From a virus, in the IMG/VR virus record IMGVR_UViG_3300000553_000005, positions 64,001-128,000 of that record: a DNA stretch of 64,000 nucleotides; one strand, 5' to 3'. Position 1 is the first letter of the stretch; the number at the start of each line of letters is the position of its first letter. Positions 2,054 to 64,000 of this stretch are shown here, piece by piece. The notes under the pieces were generated by a model. That model was not told the DNA's origin and made no database searches. It saw nothing but the letters and a program-made list of their open reading frames with translations. Both the position numbers and the translations under genes were made by a program.

Positions 2054-2138
2054 GGGTGAGTAGCTCAGAGAAAGAGCATCTAGTGGTGATTGAGTTCATC
2101 TTAGAAGGTCGGTGGTTCAAGTCCACCCTCATCCACCA
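2054..2138 (+). tRNA. tRNA-like RNA with Ala identity elements (G1-C72, G2-C71, G3.U70, A73) and an extended anticodon arm; anticodon not assignable
   Basis: Acceptor GGGTGAG/CTCATCC, D arm GCTC/GAGC, T arm GGTGG-TTCAAGT-CCACC, ACCA; 17 nt between anticodon-stem strands TCTAG/TTAGA. Confidence 0.75.
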
Positions 2139-40749: not shown

Positions 40750-40983
40750 ATGTCATCTATCAATTCATTGCTGTACACCTATGGAGTCATTTCATTAGCC
40801 ACTACTTTATTTTTTTGGGGATTTACTATTTTAGGATTTCTTTCCCAGGATTTACGAGAAGAGGCTAGAAAACAAGGTTTAGGCTTGATCCCAGCCTTGT
40901 TCATGGGGATTCTTCTTGGTGTAACATGGCCCAAATCAATGTTTAATCTATTTAAATTTATCCACAATGGAGGAAAAGTATGA
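40750..40983 (+). CDS. small membrane protein
   Basis: Two hydrophobic helices; promoter upstream. Confidence 0.6.
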   Translation: MSSINSLLYTYGVISLATTLFFWGFTILGFLSQDLREEARKQGLGLIPALFMGILLGVTWPKSMFNLFKFIHNGGKV

Positions 40984-41030
40984 CCGATACTAAGAAAGTT
41001 ATTCTCATGGTGGGGCCTTCGGGCTGTGGT
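40980..41030 (+). pseudogene. orphaned original 5' end of the kinase gene (MTDTKKVILMVGPSGCG)
   Basis: GGAGG SD; P-loop start matches the 42464 gene but breaks off just before Lys-Ser. Confidence 0.75.
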
Positions 41031-41303
41031 GATCCTGCTCCCACTCAGCATCTACGTCTACGGGTTCACCTGTGTGACCCTGATGCGGTGGTTCCTGCTC
41101 CCCGTCTTCCCCGCCTTTCACATCCCCTCCTATCCGGTGGTCGTTGGCCTGGGGCTGCTGATCCGCTACGCCACCTACTCCCCCACCGACTGTGAACCGG
41201 CTGTGGAGTCGAAGATAAAGAAGGCGGTTATGGGCCTCCTCAATCCGTTCTTTATTTCCGAGCGGCCCTGCTGTTCGGCTGGATCCTTCTGAAGTTCATG
41301 TAA
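41026..41303 (+). pseudogene. GC-rich, 5'-truncated, frameshifted membrane-protein fragment
   Basis: High GC3; no SD; hydrophobic C-terminus AALLFGWILLKFM continues in another frame. Confidence 0.5.
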
Positions 41304-41312
41304 GGAGTTCCG

Positions 41313-41501
41313 ATGTCTCGTCTGATCAATGATGGCCCCGACCCTAGTGTGGTAAAGCGGGTAATCTGTAAGAACTGTGGGGCCACAATGGAGTACGTCC
41401 CCGCTGATGTGATGTCCAAGACAGTTCACGATTACGGTGGGGGCTCTGATGACTACCGCTACATCATCTGTCTGAAGTGCCTCGACCCAATTTACCTATA
41501 A
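41313..41501 (+). CDS. small Zn-ribbon protein
   Basis: CKNC...CLKC; AGGAG SD; similar type to 3685-3867. Confidence 0.7.
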   Translation: MSRLINDGPDPSVVKRVICKNCGATMEYVPADVMSKTVHDYGGGSDDYRYIICLKCLDPIYL

Positions 41502-42441
41502 TTTTCTGAAGCTGGAGTTCTAAAAACTCTTCAGCATTTTTTTCATCAAATTTCACTTCTATCACAGAATAGTTTGATCGTAACCAAATGTCCCTCGCTA
41601 TTTGGGATTCAAAATGCTTTTTTGTCTTATGGAAATAGTTTGGAAATATATAGTGCTGCACTCCATTATACTCAACAACCACCCTTAATTCCGGCAACCA
41701 ATAGTCAACCCTCACCCTCCCACTCTTACTTACGTCTTTTGGGCATACTAGAGGAAACTGAGGGATAGCTTCAATCCCCAGTTCACTAATTACCTTTCCT
41801 AGGCGTTTCTCATTCTTCCCCTTCGCACACTCTGGACAGCCCTTACCTCTAGAAAAATTTGCCCAAGAAATCCTCCACAAAAACCCGCAAGAAACACACT
41901 TTACCCTAAGCAATGAATGAGCAGTTTGATAATCGTCAACACATCTTATTTCAATCCCCATCTCCCTCATTTTGTCGGCAACACTGATTTTCGTTTTCCA
42001 TGACTTCTCCTCATTCCTTTTTCGCAACCTCTCTGCTAGTAGTAGTTGATTGCATTTTGGACATGTTTTAGCACGAAATAGGGTTTCATACCTTGCTTGA
42101 AAGATATGTCCACACCCCAGTCCTAACCAGTTATGTTTGTATTTTTGCCCAAGAAATTGTGAATCAAGAAGTTTGTATTTCGATTCGTTGCACACTCGTT
42201 TACCTTTATTATATCTAACTAGTCTCGTCGTGTGCCCATTTCTACTACAAATAGGGCAGGGATTCCCAGGGCTATCCATTACGAATCCCCAAGCCGTGGT
42301 CCAGATATGTCCGCACTCCCCCATCCAGGTCAGATTTTTGTCTCTGATGCCAGAATATACCCCATCAACCAGCTTAACATTTTTCTTGTTTTCTTCCAGC
42401 CAATCGAGTATCATTTCATTAGTCCATTTTGTTCCTTTCAC
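41464..42441 (-). mobile_element. putative homing endonuclease: Zn-ribbon repeats plus C-terminal Vsr/DUF559-like nuclease
   Basis: Three CGH..W/CP.C units; RVDYWLPELRVVVEYNGVQHY. Confidence 0.8.
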
Positions 42442-42463
42442 TCTTCACCCCCTAGGAGTAGCC

Positions 42464-42877
42464 ATGCAGATGATAATTGCCGTTGGACCATCAGGCTGTG
42501 GGAAATCTCACTTCTTTATTAATTACTTGAAGCCCCAAGGATTTATAGAGGCCAGTGCGGATCATTTCTTTGAAAAATCTGGAGCTTACCAATTTAATCC
42601 TCGTGAACTTGACAAAGCCCATGAATTTTCTCAGGAAGAAGCCCGAGAGGCCATATCTAAGGGTTTGAAAGTTTATATTTCAAACACCAACACCCGCGAA
42701 TGGGAACGCAAGCCATATGTAGATTTGGCGAATAAGGTAGGTTACGAGGTTTGGTTGAAGGTGTTTGATGTGGATGCTGAAACTTGTGCCGCTCGTAATA
42801 CCCATGGTGTTCCTCTGGAAGCCGTGAAGAAGATGAAGGAAAGGATTGACGTTCCGGCAGGTTTTTTCAAGGTGTAG
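42464..42877 (+). CDS. polynucleotide-kinase-like P-loop kinase (AAA_33)
   Basis: AVGPSGCGKS, SADHFF, SNTN, RNTHGVP; AGGAG SD before ATG 42464. Confidence 0.85.
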   Translation: MQMIIAVGPSGCGKSHFFINYLKPQGFIEASADHFFEKSGAYQFNPRELDKAHEFSQEEAREAISKGLKVYISNTNTREWERKPYVDLANKVGYEVWLKVFDVDAETCAARNTHGVPLEAVKKMKERIDVPAGFFKV

Positions 42878-57566: not shown

Positions 57567-58148
57567 ATGGAGCAAGGGAGTATCTTGAGAAAAATTAAAA
57601 GTCTAGCTGTTTCCAAGTTCTTCAGGGAGAGTCGTAAACCTGTGGGCTATGATGAGAGCTACAATGAAAAGACCCTTATTGAGATGGTTAGCAATAACTC
57701 CATCCTCTCCACTCCTGGGTATCGGGATGGCGTGGTTCTGGTTCCTGTGCTGCCCCGTTTCATGCGTTGCCCCGTTGTTCCTCTGACCCCTAATCTAGAG
57801 TTCAAGACCACCTACGAGAGCCGTATTCCGGGTGAAACGCCTCGTAAGCGCACGGTGGCTGTCGTTGATCAACTTCCCATCGCTGGTTATGTCTCTGCTG
57901 TTCTCTACCGCCATGATGTGCTGGTAGAGGATGGGGATGCCTCTGGTGATTCGGAATGGGAAGTGGTGGCTCTCCTGGCGCATCCTGAGTCCAAACCGGA
58001 ACCTATGAATGTGGGTACGTTAATGGCTAACCACTTCAAGGCAGCAGGGGGAACCGCTACCAACATGACCCCTGAGGAGTTTGAAAAGGCTCTGCGTGAA
58101 AGCTACAATTTCTGGAAGAATCATACCATGGCAGAGGTACGTTCATGA
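57567..58148 (+). CDS. DUF3228-like protein
   Basis: GY.DG, YESR..GE.P, VLY, WEVV, EPM..TLMAN...GG, SY.FW. Confidence 0.55.
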   Translation: MEQGSILRKIKSLAVSKFFRESRKPVGYDESYNEKTLIEMVSNNSILSTPGYRDGVVLVPVLPRFMRCPVVPLTPNLEFKTTYESRIPGETPRKRTVAVVDQLPIAGYVSAVLYRHDVLVEDGDASGDSEWEVVALLAHPESKPEPMNVGTLMANHFKAAGGTATNMTPEEFEKALRESYNFWKNHTMAEVRS

Positions 58149-59764
58149 AATATATTAAATTCACCATCCTATATCCTATCCTAGCTATTTCTTACTGCTT
58201 AGGATGTCCTGGTATTTTCCTGGCTACTTCTGAAACTCTCAATCGTATTAAGGGAATTCACAATGAACAACGATGAACTAGGTAAATATCTTCAAGCTTA
58301 CAGGGCGGGGCATAGTTGGGAAGACCGTTTCCTAGCCCAGCAGATTGAGTTATTTCAAAAAGATCTCAAACATGGAGTTGGAGTTCTTGGCTTGGAATCC
58401 TCCACTTCTGAGGATGTTTACTTCGCTTCTCTTATGGGAATTAAACTCTAATGGATAATCGTATTATGGATATCAAACAATCCAGACCTTACGAACACTC
58501 TATTCTTAGTATTTCACTAGATACTTCAGGCTTTGACAATGAAGAGGTCGAAGCCGTTCTTTTTTATAAAGAGTATGAGGATCATCCAGATCATCATCAT
58601 ATTTGCCTAAACCGTGTCGAGGCTTACAAACTATTTGTATGGTTAGAGGATAATATGGATAAATTGACATAAAATAAACTAACAAAATGTTATAATGGAG
58701 GAACGTTATGCGTAAATTCATTATAACTTGCTTGGCAGTTCCATTTATTATATTTAAAGTAGCTTTTTTATATAAAGATGACTCTCATATTAAACATACT
58801 ATTGCTATATCACAGGCAGTTGAACCTACCTATCGAATTTCAGCGCAACTTAATCCTGATTTACGAATTAAAATTTCCGCTGCTCTTTCAGAAATAAACA
58901 GAGATGGAACTGTCACTCCCATATTTATTTTAAAGACCCCAACTTTTTGAGTATTGATTGTTTTAAAGGAGGGTATCAAATGACTGTCTGGAAATATTGT
59001 GAATGTGGTTGTCATGGCTACGAATGCGGCAAGTATTGGGCCTTTCATGATCTAAGAGGAGATAATCTTTTTCATCTCCATAGAGGACACGGCTGGATTA
59101 GTCCAAAATTGGGGGTTTTTCAAACTGTGGAAGATTGCACAAGACAAATCAGGATTATGGAAGGTCATGATGAAATTGATTTTGAATTGGCAACGATTGA
59201 ATATGACTATGCAATCCATCCCGAGGCCATGAAACGTATTCGCTTAATTGTCGATCAACTTAAGGAGAGGTCTATTGCATCCTGAAACCACTCATATCCA
59301 GCAAAATCTGAACTTAGAAGTGGCTCATGGGACTCTCACTAAGACTTATAATCTATGGATCAAGAATCGTTTTTTTCAACTAACTCAACGTGAACTTGAC
59401 ACGTTACACGATGTTCTTGATAAACATCGAACAAATGAGTCAATTGGCTAAATAAAACGCCTCAAAAATAATTTGCCCAACTTTTGAAAAAGTCCGGTAT
59501 ACTACAGTATCGGAGGCGTCACCCATGCTTTTCACCTATTCAAGCGTTGAACGGATGAATGAACTGGTCGAGAAGGCCAATAAATCGCTTCGCAAGATTG
59601 GAATTTCTGAAATCGTGATTGATAGTGTAAAGACTCGTAAGGTGCAGGTTGGCGAGAACGCTTTTCTGGAACCCATCTACAAGGGTGAAGGCTTCAGTGA
59701 GGCTGAACTTCGTGATCTTAGAAATTATTTTGATTTAGTCATCCAATGAATCAGTATTATCCAA

Positions 59765-60052
59765 AGAAGGCGGTTCTTAAGTCCTGAGAACCTGGAATCG
59801 CCAGTTGTGTGTGGGCCTCAGGAGTCCTATCACGAAAGAGCTTGGACAGGCAATGCTCTTGCACTACTGGCCCCGAAAGGGGCCTTTGGTGGTGATGACA
59901 GGTAGGCCAACAACTTCGGTTGTGAAATCCTGACAGTGGCGAAGAATTGACTGTCCAGAGCCAGTTCAGTCTTCCGGTGGTGGGAGGGTGCGCAACCGAC
60001 TGCCATTTACGAGCCGGGAGGGGGAAGGCGAAAGCTCTCCCCCTTCTTTTTT
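59765..60052 (+). ncRNA. ~280-nt multi-helix ncRNA with its own promoter motif and terminator
   Basis: GC-rich and non-coding; GGCCCC-GAAA-GGGGCC, ACAAC-TTCG-GTTGT, AAGAGC/GCTCTT, GGCCT/AGGCC; AGTATTA at 59753; terminal hairpin plus T run. Confidence 0.75.
60016..60052 (+). terminator. rho-independent terminator
   Basis: GGAGGGGGA..GC-GAAA-GC..TCCCCCTTC followed by T run. Confidence 0.8.
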
Positions 60053-61383
60053 AACTTTCTAACCCTATCTTTGAGGGATGCTATGTTTGAATTTGAGGCT
60101 GGGTTATTAAAACAAGGCTACACCATTTGGGGTAAGAGAATATCTCAAAATATTCATTTTCTTCAGCCTGTAATCGACAAGATTGAAGGAAGATTAATTA
60201 AACATGGAGTCCCTTATCATCATAGTCACGGAGATCTCCCTATAAGTGTAGTAACAGGAAGTTTAGATGGAACCATAACTATCATCCCGTCTGAGGCAAC
60301 GTCAGATATTAATATTCTTTCCATTGGAAAGGCTATACCAGGAATGAAAGATGGCCCTCCCAATGACCCGAAAGCTAGATCTATACCGGAAGGGAGTGAC
60401 GTATATATTCTTACGGGGGTTAAAATGCTCACGGCCAAAGAATTTGTTGCCACTACTTCCTACGCTATTCTTTGGGGTAAATATAATGATTTGAAGCTTG
60501 GAGAACTATCTTTAGAGGATTGGTCAAAATTGTACAAGACCAAAACTAAGCTTGATTGGGAATTGAGTGAGAAGGAACTAAAAAAACAAACAAAATCTAA
60601 AAATTCTTGCTTCAAAAATTCAAAAATTGGGTATAATAGTGTATCGGAGGAAGACATGGAATGCATTCTTGGTGGGACTTACGAGGATTTGGCCGAAAAG
60701 CTTCGGGAAGATGGAATGGAAGAAGTTGAAATCAGCAAGCTCATCGCTGAATTGGAAATGGCTGTTGAAGCTGCATAACAAGAATTAATTTTAAAGGAAT
60801 TAGACATGATGGATAAGGCTCTAAAGACGTTTTTCGTTGCGGCTACGCTTCCTGGGGCCTTGCTGCTCCCCTATATGAATGGTCTGGTGAATGGGATAGC
60901 TGCTGCGGCTGGCTTCATCCTGTATCATCATGGTCATCCTGCTATTGGTATAGGTTTGATGGTATACGCTGCTGTCTCCAGTACCTTTACAGTGGCTTTG
61001 GCTAACCGAAGAGGATGATATTTAAAATGAGTCTTTTTGATAAGAAATCCTGCTTGGCTATTGGCGGTGGGGCTTTCCTTCTAGGTTATTTAGGATTGGG
61101 GTTATTTCAGTGTGGCATCTTACTCATCCCTGGCCTTGCTATTCTGGCAGTCATTAAGGACTATTCAGAAAAAAATTAAAGGAGTTAGTTGTGTTTCTCG
61201 CAGTGAGAAGCCCATAGAAGAGGAGGAGTGAGATGAGCCTGGAAAAAGACTTGAAGAGTGTTAAGCAGATATGGTGGGAAGGTGAGGATCTATTTATTTC
61301 TACTGAAGATGGAGCCACTATTCGTCTAGAGAAAGCCTACTTTATGTCTCACAGTGTTAAGCCCATAGAAGAAGAGAAGTAAC

Positions 61384-61590
61384 ATGCCTTGCCCTTGCCT
61401 CCTTGCTGATGAACCTTGCAGACCTGACTGCTCTTGTGTTAACCCTCTTATGTCTTGCGGCTGTCTTTGTTGCTGCACTTATGGTAGTCCTGAACAACAG
61501 AAACGTCAGGCTAATAGACTGGTCACTAACCAAAAAAGAACTCATGTCTTATGTGTGGGAAAACATGGAGAAGATAATTACTGGGGTTGA
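61384..61590 (+). CDS. Cys-rich small protein
   Basis: MPCPC...CRPDCSC...SCGCLCCCTYGS. Confidence 0.55.
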   Translation: MPCPCLLADEPCRPDCSCVNPLMSCGCLCCCTYGSPEQQKRQANRLVTNQKRTHVLCVGKHGEDNYWG

Positions 61591-63837: not shown

Positions 63838-63886
63838 ATTTTTTGCAAGTGAACAAATTTTTGAAATTTCAGTATTAAGATAGAGT

Positions 63887-63997
63887 AGGGCCAAGGATAA
63901 CAAAAGAACACGCAGTTGTTGTTACCTCCTTAAAGCAGTACGAAGTTGCAGTTGTCATTTTCAAGCGAAGCACATTAAGATTAAACTTCTTGGCCCT
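63887..63997 (+). ncRNA. small RNA closed by a 9-bp stem, unassigned
   Basis: AGGGCCAAG/CTTGGCCCT; AGTATTAA motif at 63871; no ORF. Confidence 0.4.
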
Positions 63998-64000
63998 TCT

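What the first reader, a model, noticed from the sequence alone, without database searches (positions are those of the whole stretch)
59753..60052. ~280-nt ornate non-coding RNA with its own promoter motif and terminator
Seen: an ORF-free GC-rich island in an AT-rich genome, starting just after the phage AGTATTA motif and ending in a terminator. It has nested helices (GGCG/CGCC, GGTTCT/AGAACC, GGCCT/AGGCC, ATCAC/GTGAT, AAGAGC/GCTCTT, CACTAC/GTGGTG, GAAGA/TCTTC) and GNRA/UUCG tetraloops. Loop sequence TGGACAG (59843-59849) is complementary to CTGTCCA (59951-59957), suggesting a pseudoknot or kissing loop. I do not recognise tmRNA, RNase P, SRP, 6S or group I/II intron signatures. Inference: possibly a new structured RNA class (ribozyme or protein scaffold).
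Basis: partly seen in the sequence, partly recalled or inferred. Interest (0 to 1): 0.78.

Follow-up and report, generated by a model that had tools for sequence, protein, structure and literature searches.

The report
New structured phage RNA before RNase-like gene
An uncultured freshwater jumbo phage carries a roughly 290-base folded non-coding RNA that matches no known RNA family, is conserved with matching base-pair changes in one related phage, and sits between its own promoter-like signal and a terminator just ahead of a gene for an RNase-toxin-like protein.

Summary
Window 59750-60082 is an ORF-free, GC-rich gap (0.53, against about 0.40 for the genome). It starts at a phage promoter-like motif and ends in a strong intrinsic terminator. 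The + strand folds better than shuffles (z -3.5); the - strand does not (z -1.3).

No Rfam 15 family matches it or its homologue.

I found one homologue, in a related metagenomic phage (L032:2453-2752; about 70% identity, E 1.7e-30). It has the same flanking genes, its own z of -3.9, and 10-11 compensatory base-pair changes. Indels are not multiples of three. A GNRA loop changes from GAAA to GUAA.

The promoter-like motif changes with the phage lineage, AGTATTA versus AGTAATA, at this RNA and at other sites alike.

The RNA is a string of hairpins around a three-way junction. The gene after the terminator encodes a protein whose N-terminal domain resembles RelE/BrnT/BECR RNase toxins (weak but convergent fold matches).

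Best reading: a real, new, narrowly distributed phage ncRNA. Its terminator gates that gene, and the RNA may partner it, as in type III toxin-antitoxin or AbiF-RCd22 systems. Function is unproven. No expression data could be obtained, and only two lineages are known.

The parts
59525..59749 (+). Upstream 74-aa ORF. It is an in-frame deletion chimera: the first ~51 aa of a 393-aa protein family joined to the last 23 aa of a 125-aa L7/L12-CTD-like protein. It is not part of the RNA.
59753..59759 (+). Phage promoter-like motif AGTATTA, 3 nt after the upstream stop codon. The transcription start is inferred to lie a few nt downstream.
   Evidence: Sense-strand hits: 35 against 21 expected, and 10 of 35 are intergenic against 3.4 expected. 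Antisense: 1 of 20 intergenic. L032 has AGTAATA at the same place and at 3 other pre-gene or pre-RNA sites. L034 has AGTATTA.
59769..59802 (+). H1: 5' hairpin of 6-9 bp with a 16-nt loop.
   Evidence: 3 compensatory and 3 one-sided changes
59804..59813 (+). Invariant GUUGUGUGUG. It is either single-stranded or the 5' strand of a small alternative hairpin (59805-59835).
59814..59908 (+). Core domain. The long-range helix P2 (GGCCU 59814-59818 / AGGCC 59904-59908) and P3 (UAUCAC 59828-59833 / GUGAUG 59892-59897) close a three-way junction.
   Evidence: Predicted independently in both sequences. P3 is invariant. P2 is present in both but in a shifted register. P2 competes with the base of H6.
59836..59860 (+). 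P4 hairpin with the conserved loop/3' strand ACAGGCAAUGC.
   Evidence: one compensatory pair (G-C to U-A). L032 has a 7-nt insertion that lengthens the stem.
59862..59891 (+). P5 hairpin: CACUA/UGGUG plus GGCCCC-GAAA-GGGGCC.
   Evidence: one compensatory pair (A-U to U-A). The GNRA loop changes from GAAA to GUAA.
59906..59940 (+). H6: GCC/GGC-closed hairpin. Its interior is variable, and the UUCG hairpin 59909-59924 occurs only in this phage.
59942..59973 (+). H7 hairpin with the conserved apical AGAGCC (59957-59962). The stem sequence is almost wholly different in L032 but still pairs.
   Evidence: 3 compensatory pairs. The SNP 59965 T>A in strain L012 falls in a bulge or loop.
59976..60004 (+). 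H8 hairpin GGUGGU.GG / CC.GACUGCC. The stem is invariant and the loop varies in length.
60007..60015 (+). Conserved linker UUACGAGCC.
   Evidence: Strain L012 has 60009 A>G.
60016..60052 (+). Intrinsic terminator: 13-bp G/C-rich stem with a GAAA loop, then a U-run.
   Evidence: 1 compensatory and 2 one-sided changes. An orthologous terminator is also present in L034.
60053..60082 (+). Highly conserved 5'UTR with SD GAGGGA of the downstream gene. It contains no promoter motif.
   Evidence: Nearly identical between the window and L032. Similar in L034.
60083..60778 (+). Downstream 231-aa gene. The N-terminal domain (about residues 18-143) has a BECR/RelE/BrnT-like fold, followed by a C-terminal helical domain.
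   Evidence: AF2 pLDDT 78.9. VIA: BrnT-type toxins at Z 6.7 and 5.6, then CdiA-CT, colicin D and RelE. ESM Atlas: DUF4258 TM 0.71, PBECR2 0.63, BrnT 0.66 by target. No Pfam, PHROG or PADLOC family.

Best explanation
SHOWN. Window ~59766-60052 (+) encodes a real, conserved, highly structured non-coding RNA of about 285 nt that belongs to no described family. It is built from:
- a 5' hairpin;
- a three-way-junction domain, with one arm capped by a GNRA loop and one carrying the conserved ACAGGCAAU;
- three further hairpins, one with a conserved AGAGCC loop;
- a conserved UUACGAGCC linker;
- an intrinsic terminator.

INFERRED. Transcription starts at the phage's own promoter-like motif (AGTATTA) and mostly stops at the terminator, releasing the RNA as a stable species. 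The gene that follows has a conserved RBS but no promoter motif, so it is transcribed only by read-through, and the element throttles it in cis. That gene encodes a BECR/RelE/BrnT-like RNase-fold protein.

MOST LIKELY FUNCTION (inference, about 1 in 3). The RNA is the partner of that protein. It keeps the RNase-like protein's dose low in cis, and binds, neutralises or guides it in trans. This is how type III toxin-antitoxin RNAs and the AbiF-RCd22 pair work.

CONFIDENCE. About 0.85 that this is a real structured RNA of a new family. About 0.6 that the terminator gates the downstream gene. [quoted passage not shown]
For: No Rfam 15 match for the RNA or its homologue.

Strand-specific excess stability: z -3.49 on + against -1.32 on -. 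The homologue has z -3.9.

An orthologous RNA lies in L032/L033 between homologous flanking genes, at about 70% identity and E 1.7e-30.

Covariation:
- Consensus structure: 72 pairs, 100% paired in both sequences, 11 compensatory pairs; 0 of 500 shuffles reach this, and slid controls give 0-4.
- Structure predicted from the window sequence alone: 10 compensatory pairs against 0-6 when slid, and 88% paired against 41-52%.
- The domain folds of the two sequences agree.

Non-triplet indels and no called ORF on 10 assemblies.

The promoter motif is enriched in sense intergenic positions and switches to AGTAATA in L032 at this RNA and three other sites.

The terminator plus conserved UTR and RBS, with no promoter motif, occurs in three lineages: the window, L032 and L034.

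The fold of the downstream protein is BECR-like: BrnT/RelE/CdiA-CT/colicin D in PDB and DUF4258/PBECR2/BrnT in the ESM Atlas.

Precedent for a structured, non-repeat ncRNA with a terminator acting in cis and in trans on a toxic RNase-like protein: RCd22-AbiF, PMC12373285.
Against: Only two lineages are known, so the covariation rests on one sequence pair.

Homologues of the downstream protein exist with no RNA. P0124 and P0125 have gaps of about 30 nt upstream, and L034 has only an ~80-nt leader with a terminator. The protein therefore does not need this RNA.

The fold matches are weak (best Z 6.7, below the usual noise ceiling named). No catalytic residues were identified.

The RNA has no tandem repeats.

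No toxin family is detected by Pfam or PADLOC.

No conserved antiterminator was found.
Confidence: 0.35

Rival explanations
1. It is a stand-alone, trans-acting phage ncRNA: a protein sponge or scaffold, or a decoy for a host RNA-binding or defence factor. Its position before the RNase-like gene is incidental. The terminator simply defines its 3' end, and the downstream gene is served by leaky read-through, as is common in phage operons.
For: It has its own lineage-matched promoter motif and a strong terminator.

Several hairpins present conserved loop or linker sequences (ACAGGCAAU, AGAGCC, UUACGAGCC, GUUGUGUGUG) while their stems covary. This is typical of protein-binding RNAs.

The RNA was kept intact in the window phage although a ~1.9-kb deletion removed the genes just upstream.

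The same promoter type drives a second ncRNA array next to a Ro60-like DUF2828/DUF7788 gene 3.8 kb downstream. It lies in an RNA-repair and translation-related gene island: RlaP, Rnl1, and PTH2 in L032.

Homologues of the downstream protein occur without the RNA.
Against: No partner or target was identified. Complements of the conserved single strands occur in the phage genome only at chance level and without extension.

The conserved absence of a promoter motif between the terminator and the next gene argues for at least a cis link.
Confidence: 0.3
2. It is a cis-acting riboswitch-like or protein-dependent transcription attenuator. The three-way-junction domain senses a ligand or factor and controls the terminator, and so the downstream gene. 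The terminated RNA is only a by-product.
For: The order is promoter, folded leader, intrinsic terminator, conserved RBS, gene, and it is kept in two lineages. A shorter leader with the terminator is present in a third. A three-way junction with a GNRA-capped arm is a common aptamer layout.
Against: No known aptamer class matches.

Three hairpins (about 100 nt) separate the junction domain from the terminator. No conserved alternative pairing that would disrupt the terminator's 5' arm was found. The only strong alternative pairs the 3' arm with the G-rich H8, which is not a usual switch geometry.

L034 keeps the terminator without the large RNA.
Confidence: 0.12
3. It is a ribozyme or a degenerate or self-splicing intron-like element. 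Group I-like core motifs are suggested by UCAGGA/UCCUGA and CAGAGCC.
For: Only loose resemblance, from my own reading of the sequence, of short motifs to group I P/Q/R elements. Homing endonuclease genes are common in this phage.
Against: No hit to Rfam group I, group II or any ribozyme family, even at E<=10.

The flanks are separate genes with their own SD sequences, and the upstream ORF ends in a stop. The putative P4 (UCAGGA/UCCUGA) is not kept in L032. The element ends in a terminator.
Confidence: 0.03
4. It is not a functional RNA. It is a GC-rich remnant of foreign or decayed coding DNA that happens to fold, conserved only because the two phages diverged recently.
For: Overall identity (about 64-70%) is no higher than that of neighbouring coding DNA. 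Only two lineages are known. GC-rich islands of probable foreign origin exist elsewhere in the window.
Against: Substitutions are not random. Stems change while pairing is kept: 11 compensatory and 12 one-sided changes, and no broken pair in the consensus. Blocks of 10-32 nt are nearly invariant. Both sequences have z below -3.4 on the + strand only. The promoter motif and terminator are maintained.
Confidence: 0.07

Closest known systems
Type III toxin-antitoxin loci (ToxIN, CptIN, TenpIN)
   Same: The order is promoter, structured antitoxin RNA, Rho-independent terminator that limits read-through, then a gene for an endoribonuclease-like protein. These loci are phage-associated.
   Different: The RNA is one complex ~285-nt molecule, not tandem 34-47-nt repeats. 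The protein is not of the ToxN, AbiQ, CptN or TenpN families and has a BECR/RelE-like rather than a Kid/ToxN-like fold. Homologues of the protein occur without the RNA. Toxicity and binding are untested.
RCd22 ncRNA - AbiF (Abi_2) system of a Clostridioides difficile prophage (PMC12373285)
   Same: A non-repeat, structured ncRNA upstream of a toxic RNA-targeting protein gene. It reduces expression of that gene at the transcriptional level and neutralises the protein in trans. It is encoded by a phage.
   Different: There is no abiF RNA motif (no Rfam hit) and no Abi_2/HEPN protein. The RNA architecture and protein fold are different.
Large or 'ornate' phage-associated ncRNAs and Ro60-associated Y RNAs (GOLLD, ROOL, YrlA)
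   Same: It is a structured ncRNA in a phage region rich in tRNA and RNA-repair genes. A Ro60-like DUF2828/DUF7788 gene with its own ncRNA array lies 3.8-4.5 kb downstream.
   Different: No Rfam match to GOLLD, ROOL, Y_RNA or any other family. It is much smaller than GOLLD or ROOL (from my own knowledge, roughly 600-800 nt), and it is not adjacent to the Ro60-like gene.
Riboswitch and T-box leaders
   Same: A leader of about 250-300 nt that ends in an intrinsic terminator before the regulated gene.
   Different: No aptamer or T-box family match. No conserved antiterminator.

Membership tests
Any Rfam 15 family (4227 models) | Covariance-model match at or near the gathering score | tested here: not met
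   Searches gave only junk hits: Histone3 on the - strand at 21 bits against a cutoff of 34, mir-1249, and IRES_Kv1_4 at E~9.
Group I intron | Match to RF00028, or a conserved P3-P9 core | tested here: not met
   No hit at E<=10 in either homologue. The candidate P4 pairing is not conserved in L032.
Group I intron | Interrupts a gene whose exons join in frame | tested here: not met
   The flanks are separate ORFs, each with its own SD. The upstream ORF is a deletion chimera. The element ends in a terminator.
Type III toxin-antitoxin | Antitoxin made of tandem direct RNA repeats | tested here: not met
   TRF finds no repeats in 59700-60100.
Type III toxin-antitoxin | Toxin of the ToxN/AbiQ, CptN or TenpN families | tested here: not met
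   No Pfam, PHROG or PADLOC family for P0001, P0123 or P0122.
Type III toxin-antitoxin | Intrinsic terminator between the RNA and the toxin gene, with no separate promoter | tested here: met
   Terminator at 60016-60052. The UTR 60053-60082 is conserved and has no motif. Promoter activity itself was not tested.
Type III toxin-antitoxin | The protein is an endoribonuclease that binds and is inhibited by the RNA | not testable with these tools
   Only fold resemblance to BECR/RelE/BrnT RNases is available.
AbiF-RCd22-type system | abiF RNA motif and an Abi_2 family protein | tested here: not met
   No Rfam hit and no Pfam Abi_2 hit.
BECR-fold RNases (RelE/BrnT/DUF4258/PBECR), for the downstream protein | Fold similarity of the N-terminal domain | tested here: inconclusive
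   VIA: Z 6.7 (7vd7_A, 87 of 94 residues, rmsd 3.0) and 5.6 (BrnT 3u97). The top 30 hits are dominated by RelE, ParE, CdiA-CT and colicin D. Atlas TM by target is 0.63-0.71. Foldseek PDB gave nothing at E<=0.001.
Bacterial/phage Y RNA (YrlA-like) | Rfam match, and a position next to the Ro60 gene | tested here: not met
   No Rfam hit. The Ro60-like DUF2828 gene lies about 4.5 kb downstream and has its own adjacent RNA array.
Riboswitch | Conserved mutually exclusive terminator and antiterminator pairing | tested here: inconclusive
   The duplex scan found no conserved partner for the terminator's 5' arm. The G-rich H8 can pair with the 3' arm in both sequences.

The most novel reading that the evidence does not exclude
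The RNA is the antitoxin-like partner of a BECR/RelE-fold RNase. That would make this a new class of RNA-protein (type III-like) pair, in which a single ornate ~285-nt RNA rather than short repeats both attenuates and neutralises or guides the nuclease. A jumbo phage carries it inside an RNA-repair island, perhaps to control an RNase it uses against host RNA.
Probability: 0.2. Interest if true: 0.75.

Novelty: new variant of a known kind. Interest (0 to 1): 0.55.

Why it matters
Structured RNAs of this size that match no known family are rare. Here the candidate comes with comparative support, a defined promoter-like signal, a terminator and a plausible protein partner, so it can be tested directly.

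If the RNA controls or binds the RelE/BrnT-like protein, RNA-antitoxin logic would extend to the BECR nuclease superfamily and to phage-borne systems.

If it acts on its own, it adds a new phage ncRNA to a gene island that also holds an RNA ligase, an RlaP-type nucleotidyltransferase and a Ro60-like protein with its own RNA array. Together these point to a rich, unexplored RNA biology in freshwater jumbo phages, which are distantly related to Acidobacteriota phage Tunturi_5.

Its narrow distribution (two lineages) limits its generality.

Tried and rejected
1. Rfam at gathering and at E<=10 on both homologues: nothing. tRNA/tmRNA scan: only four tRNAs elsewhere.
2. BLAST of the RNA and of 7.9 kb around it against GenBank phages: no match.
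3. Flanking proteins and the RNA ligase as single queries in IMG/VR: no relatives.
4. Exact and gapped DNA patterns from the RNA and from the conserved UTR, in IMG/VR, JGI metagenomes and GTDB genomes: only chance hits, checked by BLAST.
5. Covariance model R1 of the junction core against the whole phage record, Tunturi_5 and 12 relatives' loci: only self and L032.
6. Apparent similarity to window 41200-41450: chance.
7. Ten other assemblies of the same phage: identical apart from two SNPs, so uninformative. The 90% clusters of the flanking proteins have single members.
8. Other relatives of the RNA ligase (58-59% identity: L034, L036, L038/39; 51%: L035) lack the RNA. P0003's contig has no DNA on hand.
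10. Search for trans targets of the conserved single strands in the phage genome: chance level.
11. SD-sequestering hairpin in the UTR: weak and not consistent.
12. Box C/D-like GUGAUGA...CUGA in the window RNA: not conserved in L032 (my reading).
13. Foldseek against PDB for the downstream protein: no match at E<=0.001. Atlas search by features: no usable hit.
Full report
WHAT IS THERE

The window is part of an IMG/VR virus record of 139,816 bases (CheckV 49% complete). It is a large phage. Its closest cultured relative is the 309-kb Acidobacteriota phage Tunturi_5 (UvsX 45% identical; PMC11924767).

Between a 74-aa ORF (59525-59749) and a 231-aa ORF (ATG 60083) lies a 333-nt gap. No gene was called in it on any of ten independent assemblies of this phage. 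Its GC is 0.53, the highest of all gaps of 200 nt or more in the record.

The gap opens with AGTATTA (59753-59759) and closes with a 13-bp G/C-rich hairpin and a U-run (60016-60052). The + strand folds at -123.1 kcal/mol with z -3.49, and none of 200 shuffles does as well. The - strand has z -1.32.

IS IT KNOWN?

Rfam 15 gives nothing at gathering thresholds or at E<=10. ARAGORN finds only four tRNAs far away. GenBank phages hold no similar DNA.

FINDING A HOMOLOGUE

- The flanking ORFs have no detectable relatives in IMG/VR.
- The downstream protein at first matched only itself among 5.8 billion proteins.
- Ten other contigs carry the same phage. Their RNA region is identical except for two SNPs in one strain, 59965 T>A and 60009 A>G.
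- The Rnl1-type RNA ligase 1.8 kb downstream gave a graded series of relatives.
- The 75%-identical ligase lies on ENA scaffolds L032/L033. There, a 329-nt ORF-free gap sits between homologues of the same two flanking genes.
- That gap aligns with the window RNA at about 70% identity (E 1.7e-30).
- Ligase relatives at 51-59% identity (L034-L039) lack the RNA.
- All further pattern scans of IMG/VR, JGI metagenomes and GTDB genomes gave only chance hits (checked).
- A covariance model of the core found only the two known copies.

The family therefore has two known lineages.

COMPARATIVE EVIDENCE FOR STRUCTURE

The L032 RNA has its own excess stability (z -3.9). Folding each conserved-anchor-delimited segment separately gives the same architecture in both sequences:
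- H1 is a 5' hairpin with a 16-nt loop.
- The long-range helix P2 and the invariant P3 (UAUCAC/GUGAUG) close a three-way junction.
- The junction arms are P4 (conserved ACAGGCAAU) and P5 (GGCCCC-GNRA-GGGGCC).
- H6 is a hairpin closed by GCC/GGC, with a variable interior.
- H7 has a conserved AGAGCC loop, and its stem is almost entirely different in sequence yet still pairs.
- H8 is GGUGGUGG/CCGACUGCC, with a loop of variable length.
- Then come the conserved linker UUACGAGCC and the terminator.

RNAalifold on the pair gives 72 pairs, all canonical in both sequences. Eleven have compensatory double changes and twelve have one-sided changes. None of 500 shuffles reaches this, and sliding the partners gives 0-4 double changes and 42-62% pairing.

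That consensus is biased towards covariation. I therefore also projected the MFE structure of the window sequence alone onto the sequence-only alignment. It still gives 10 double changes against 0-6 when slid, and 88% against 41-52% pairing, with 5 of 500 shuffles as high.

The GNRA loop changes from GAAA to GUAA. Indels are 1, 2, 3 and 7 nt long, which a coding region would not tolerate.

The pseudoknot TGGACAG:CTGTCCA is not kept: L032 has a 7-nt insertion in the loop and TAGGTTA in place of CTGTCCA, which is a strand of H7. The UUCG hairpin is absent from L032.

Two points remain unresolved. P2 and the base of H6 use the same GCC. The small hairpin 59805-59835 competes with P3.

PROMOTER AND TERMINATOR

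AGTATTA occurs 35 times in the sense orientation (21 expected), and 10 of those lie in the 10% of the genome that is intergenic (3.4 expected). In the antisense orientation only 1 of 20 is intergenic. Many sense copies sit 10-25 nt before an SD and ATG.

In L032 the motif at the head of the RNA is AGTAATA. The same variant precedes two genes and the Ro60-associated RNA array of that phage. L034 uses AGTATTA. A signal that changes in concert across sites within a lineage is most simply a promoter for that phage's transcription apparatus, and this RNA has one.

CONTEXT

The 30 nt after the terminator (UTR with SD GAGGGA) are nearly identical between the window and L032. This is the most conserved stretch of the locus, and it holds no promoter motif.

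L034 has, at the same place, the motif, an ~80-nt leader, an orthologous terminator and the same UTR before its homologue of the downstream gene. The downstream gene is therefore reached only through this terminator in three lineages.

A profile search found seven more homologues of that protein. An AlphaFold model from ten sequences (pLDDT 78.9) has an N-terminal alpha/beta domain. Its best matches are:
- In PDB: BrnT-type toxins (Z 6.7 and 5.6, covering nearly the whole toxin), followed by CdiA-CT tRNases, colicin D, RelE, ParE, YoeB and HigB.
- In the ESM Atlas: DUF4258, PBECR2 and BrnT clusters (TM by target 0.63-0.71).

Each score alone is weak, and Foldseek against PDB found nothing significant. 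The two independent libraries nevertheless converge on the BECR/RelE nuclease fold.

The wider neighbourhood is RNA-centred:
- an RlaP-type nucleotidyltransferase;
- DUF3228;
- an Rnl1 ligase;
- an ncRNA array followed by a DUF2828/DUF7788 (Ro60-like) gene;
- in L032, PTH2 and an L7/L12-CTD-like protein just upstream of the RNA.

INTERPRETATION

The RNA is real and new (about 0.85).

The arrangement is promoter, folded RNA, terminator, then an RNase-fold gene. This is the layout of type III toxin-antitoxin loci. It is also the layout of the RCd22-AbiF pair, where a non-repeat structured RNA lowers transcription of the toxin gene and neutralises the protein in trans (PMC12373285). I take this as the most likely mechanism (about 0.3 for a direct RNA-protein partnership, and about 0.6 for cis gating by the terminator).

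It is not a member of those families. It has no repeats, no ToxN or Abi_2 protein and no abiF motif.

The main counter-evidence is that homologues of the protein occur with only ~30-nt upstream gaps.

The chief rival is a stand-alone trans-acting RNA unrelated to its neighbour (0.3). It is favoured by the conserved loops on covarying stems, and by the RNA's survival of a 1.9-kb deletion that created the chimeric 74-aa ORF. A ligand-sensing attenuator (0.12), a ribozyme or intron (0.03) and a non-functional remnant (0.07) are less likely, for the reasons listed under rival explanations.

PRIOR NOTES OF THIS SCAN

The same stretch was noted once before in an overlapping window of the same genome (e1-5762824). 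It has not been seen on other DNA.

Noticed in passing
window 63871-64000 and beyond (G000:C1:127871-130069; L002:871-3067): A ~640-nt ORF-free stretch starts at an AGTATTA motif and is followed by a 518-aa DUF2828/DUF7788 (Ro60/TROVE-like plus vWA) gene. The same arrangement is conserved in L032 (7835-9952, about 81-82% nt identity), L034 and L038/39. No Rfam hit. It looks like a phage Ro60-like protein with its own Y-RNA-like array.
   Followed up: partly
window 59525-59749: The 74-aa ORF is an in-frame deletion chimera. Residues 1-51 match the N-terminus of a 390-393-aa protein in L032 and L034. The last 23 match the C-terminus of a 125-aa protein in L032. About 1.9 kb (five genes or parts of genes) is missing from the window phage.
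   Followed up: yes
L032:2074-2451: The 125-aa protein just upstream of the RNA in the related phage carries a ribosomal L7/L12 C-terminal-domain-like segment (Pfam PF00542, 25.7 bits against a cutoff of 25.9).
   Followed up: partly
G000 whole record; L032; L034: The promoter-like heptamer is lineage-specific: AGTATTA in the window phage and L034, AGTAATA in L032. It sits at orthologous sites before genes and ncRNAs.
   Followed up: partly
L036:2601-3214; L038:1073-1625; L039:781-1333: More distant relatives have 550-610-nt ORF-free gaps after a DUF6515 gene. These hold hairpins closed by TAGACGC...GCGTCTA and terminators, and are probably further ncRNAs of the Ro60-array type.
   Followed up: no
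window 2054-2138: The tRNA-Thr(GGU) is 85 nt long, with a 19-nt insertion at the anticodon arm in the Rfam alignment. This is possibly an intron or a long variable feature.
   Followed up: no
window 57567-58148: The DUF3228 gene is a GC-rich island (about 0.55) in a 0.40-GC genome, suggesting recent horizontal acquisition.
   Followed up: no
window 40980-42520: A P-loop kinase-like gene appears to be interrupted by GC-rich DNA and a 325-aa endonuclease-like ORF on the - strand. I looked at this only because of a chance similarity to the RNA.
   Followed up: no
L011:1-80 (equivalent to window 59500-59555): One assembly of the same phage diverges completely upstream of 59556. This is either a rearrangement or a chimeric contig end.
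   Followed up: no
L032:5168-5992; window ~61357-61545 (-): A LAGLIDADG-like gene precedes the RNA ligase in L032. A 44-aa NUMOD3 ORF is called on the - strand in some assemblies of the window phage. Homing-endonuclease traffic around the ligase appears common.
   Followed up: no
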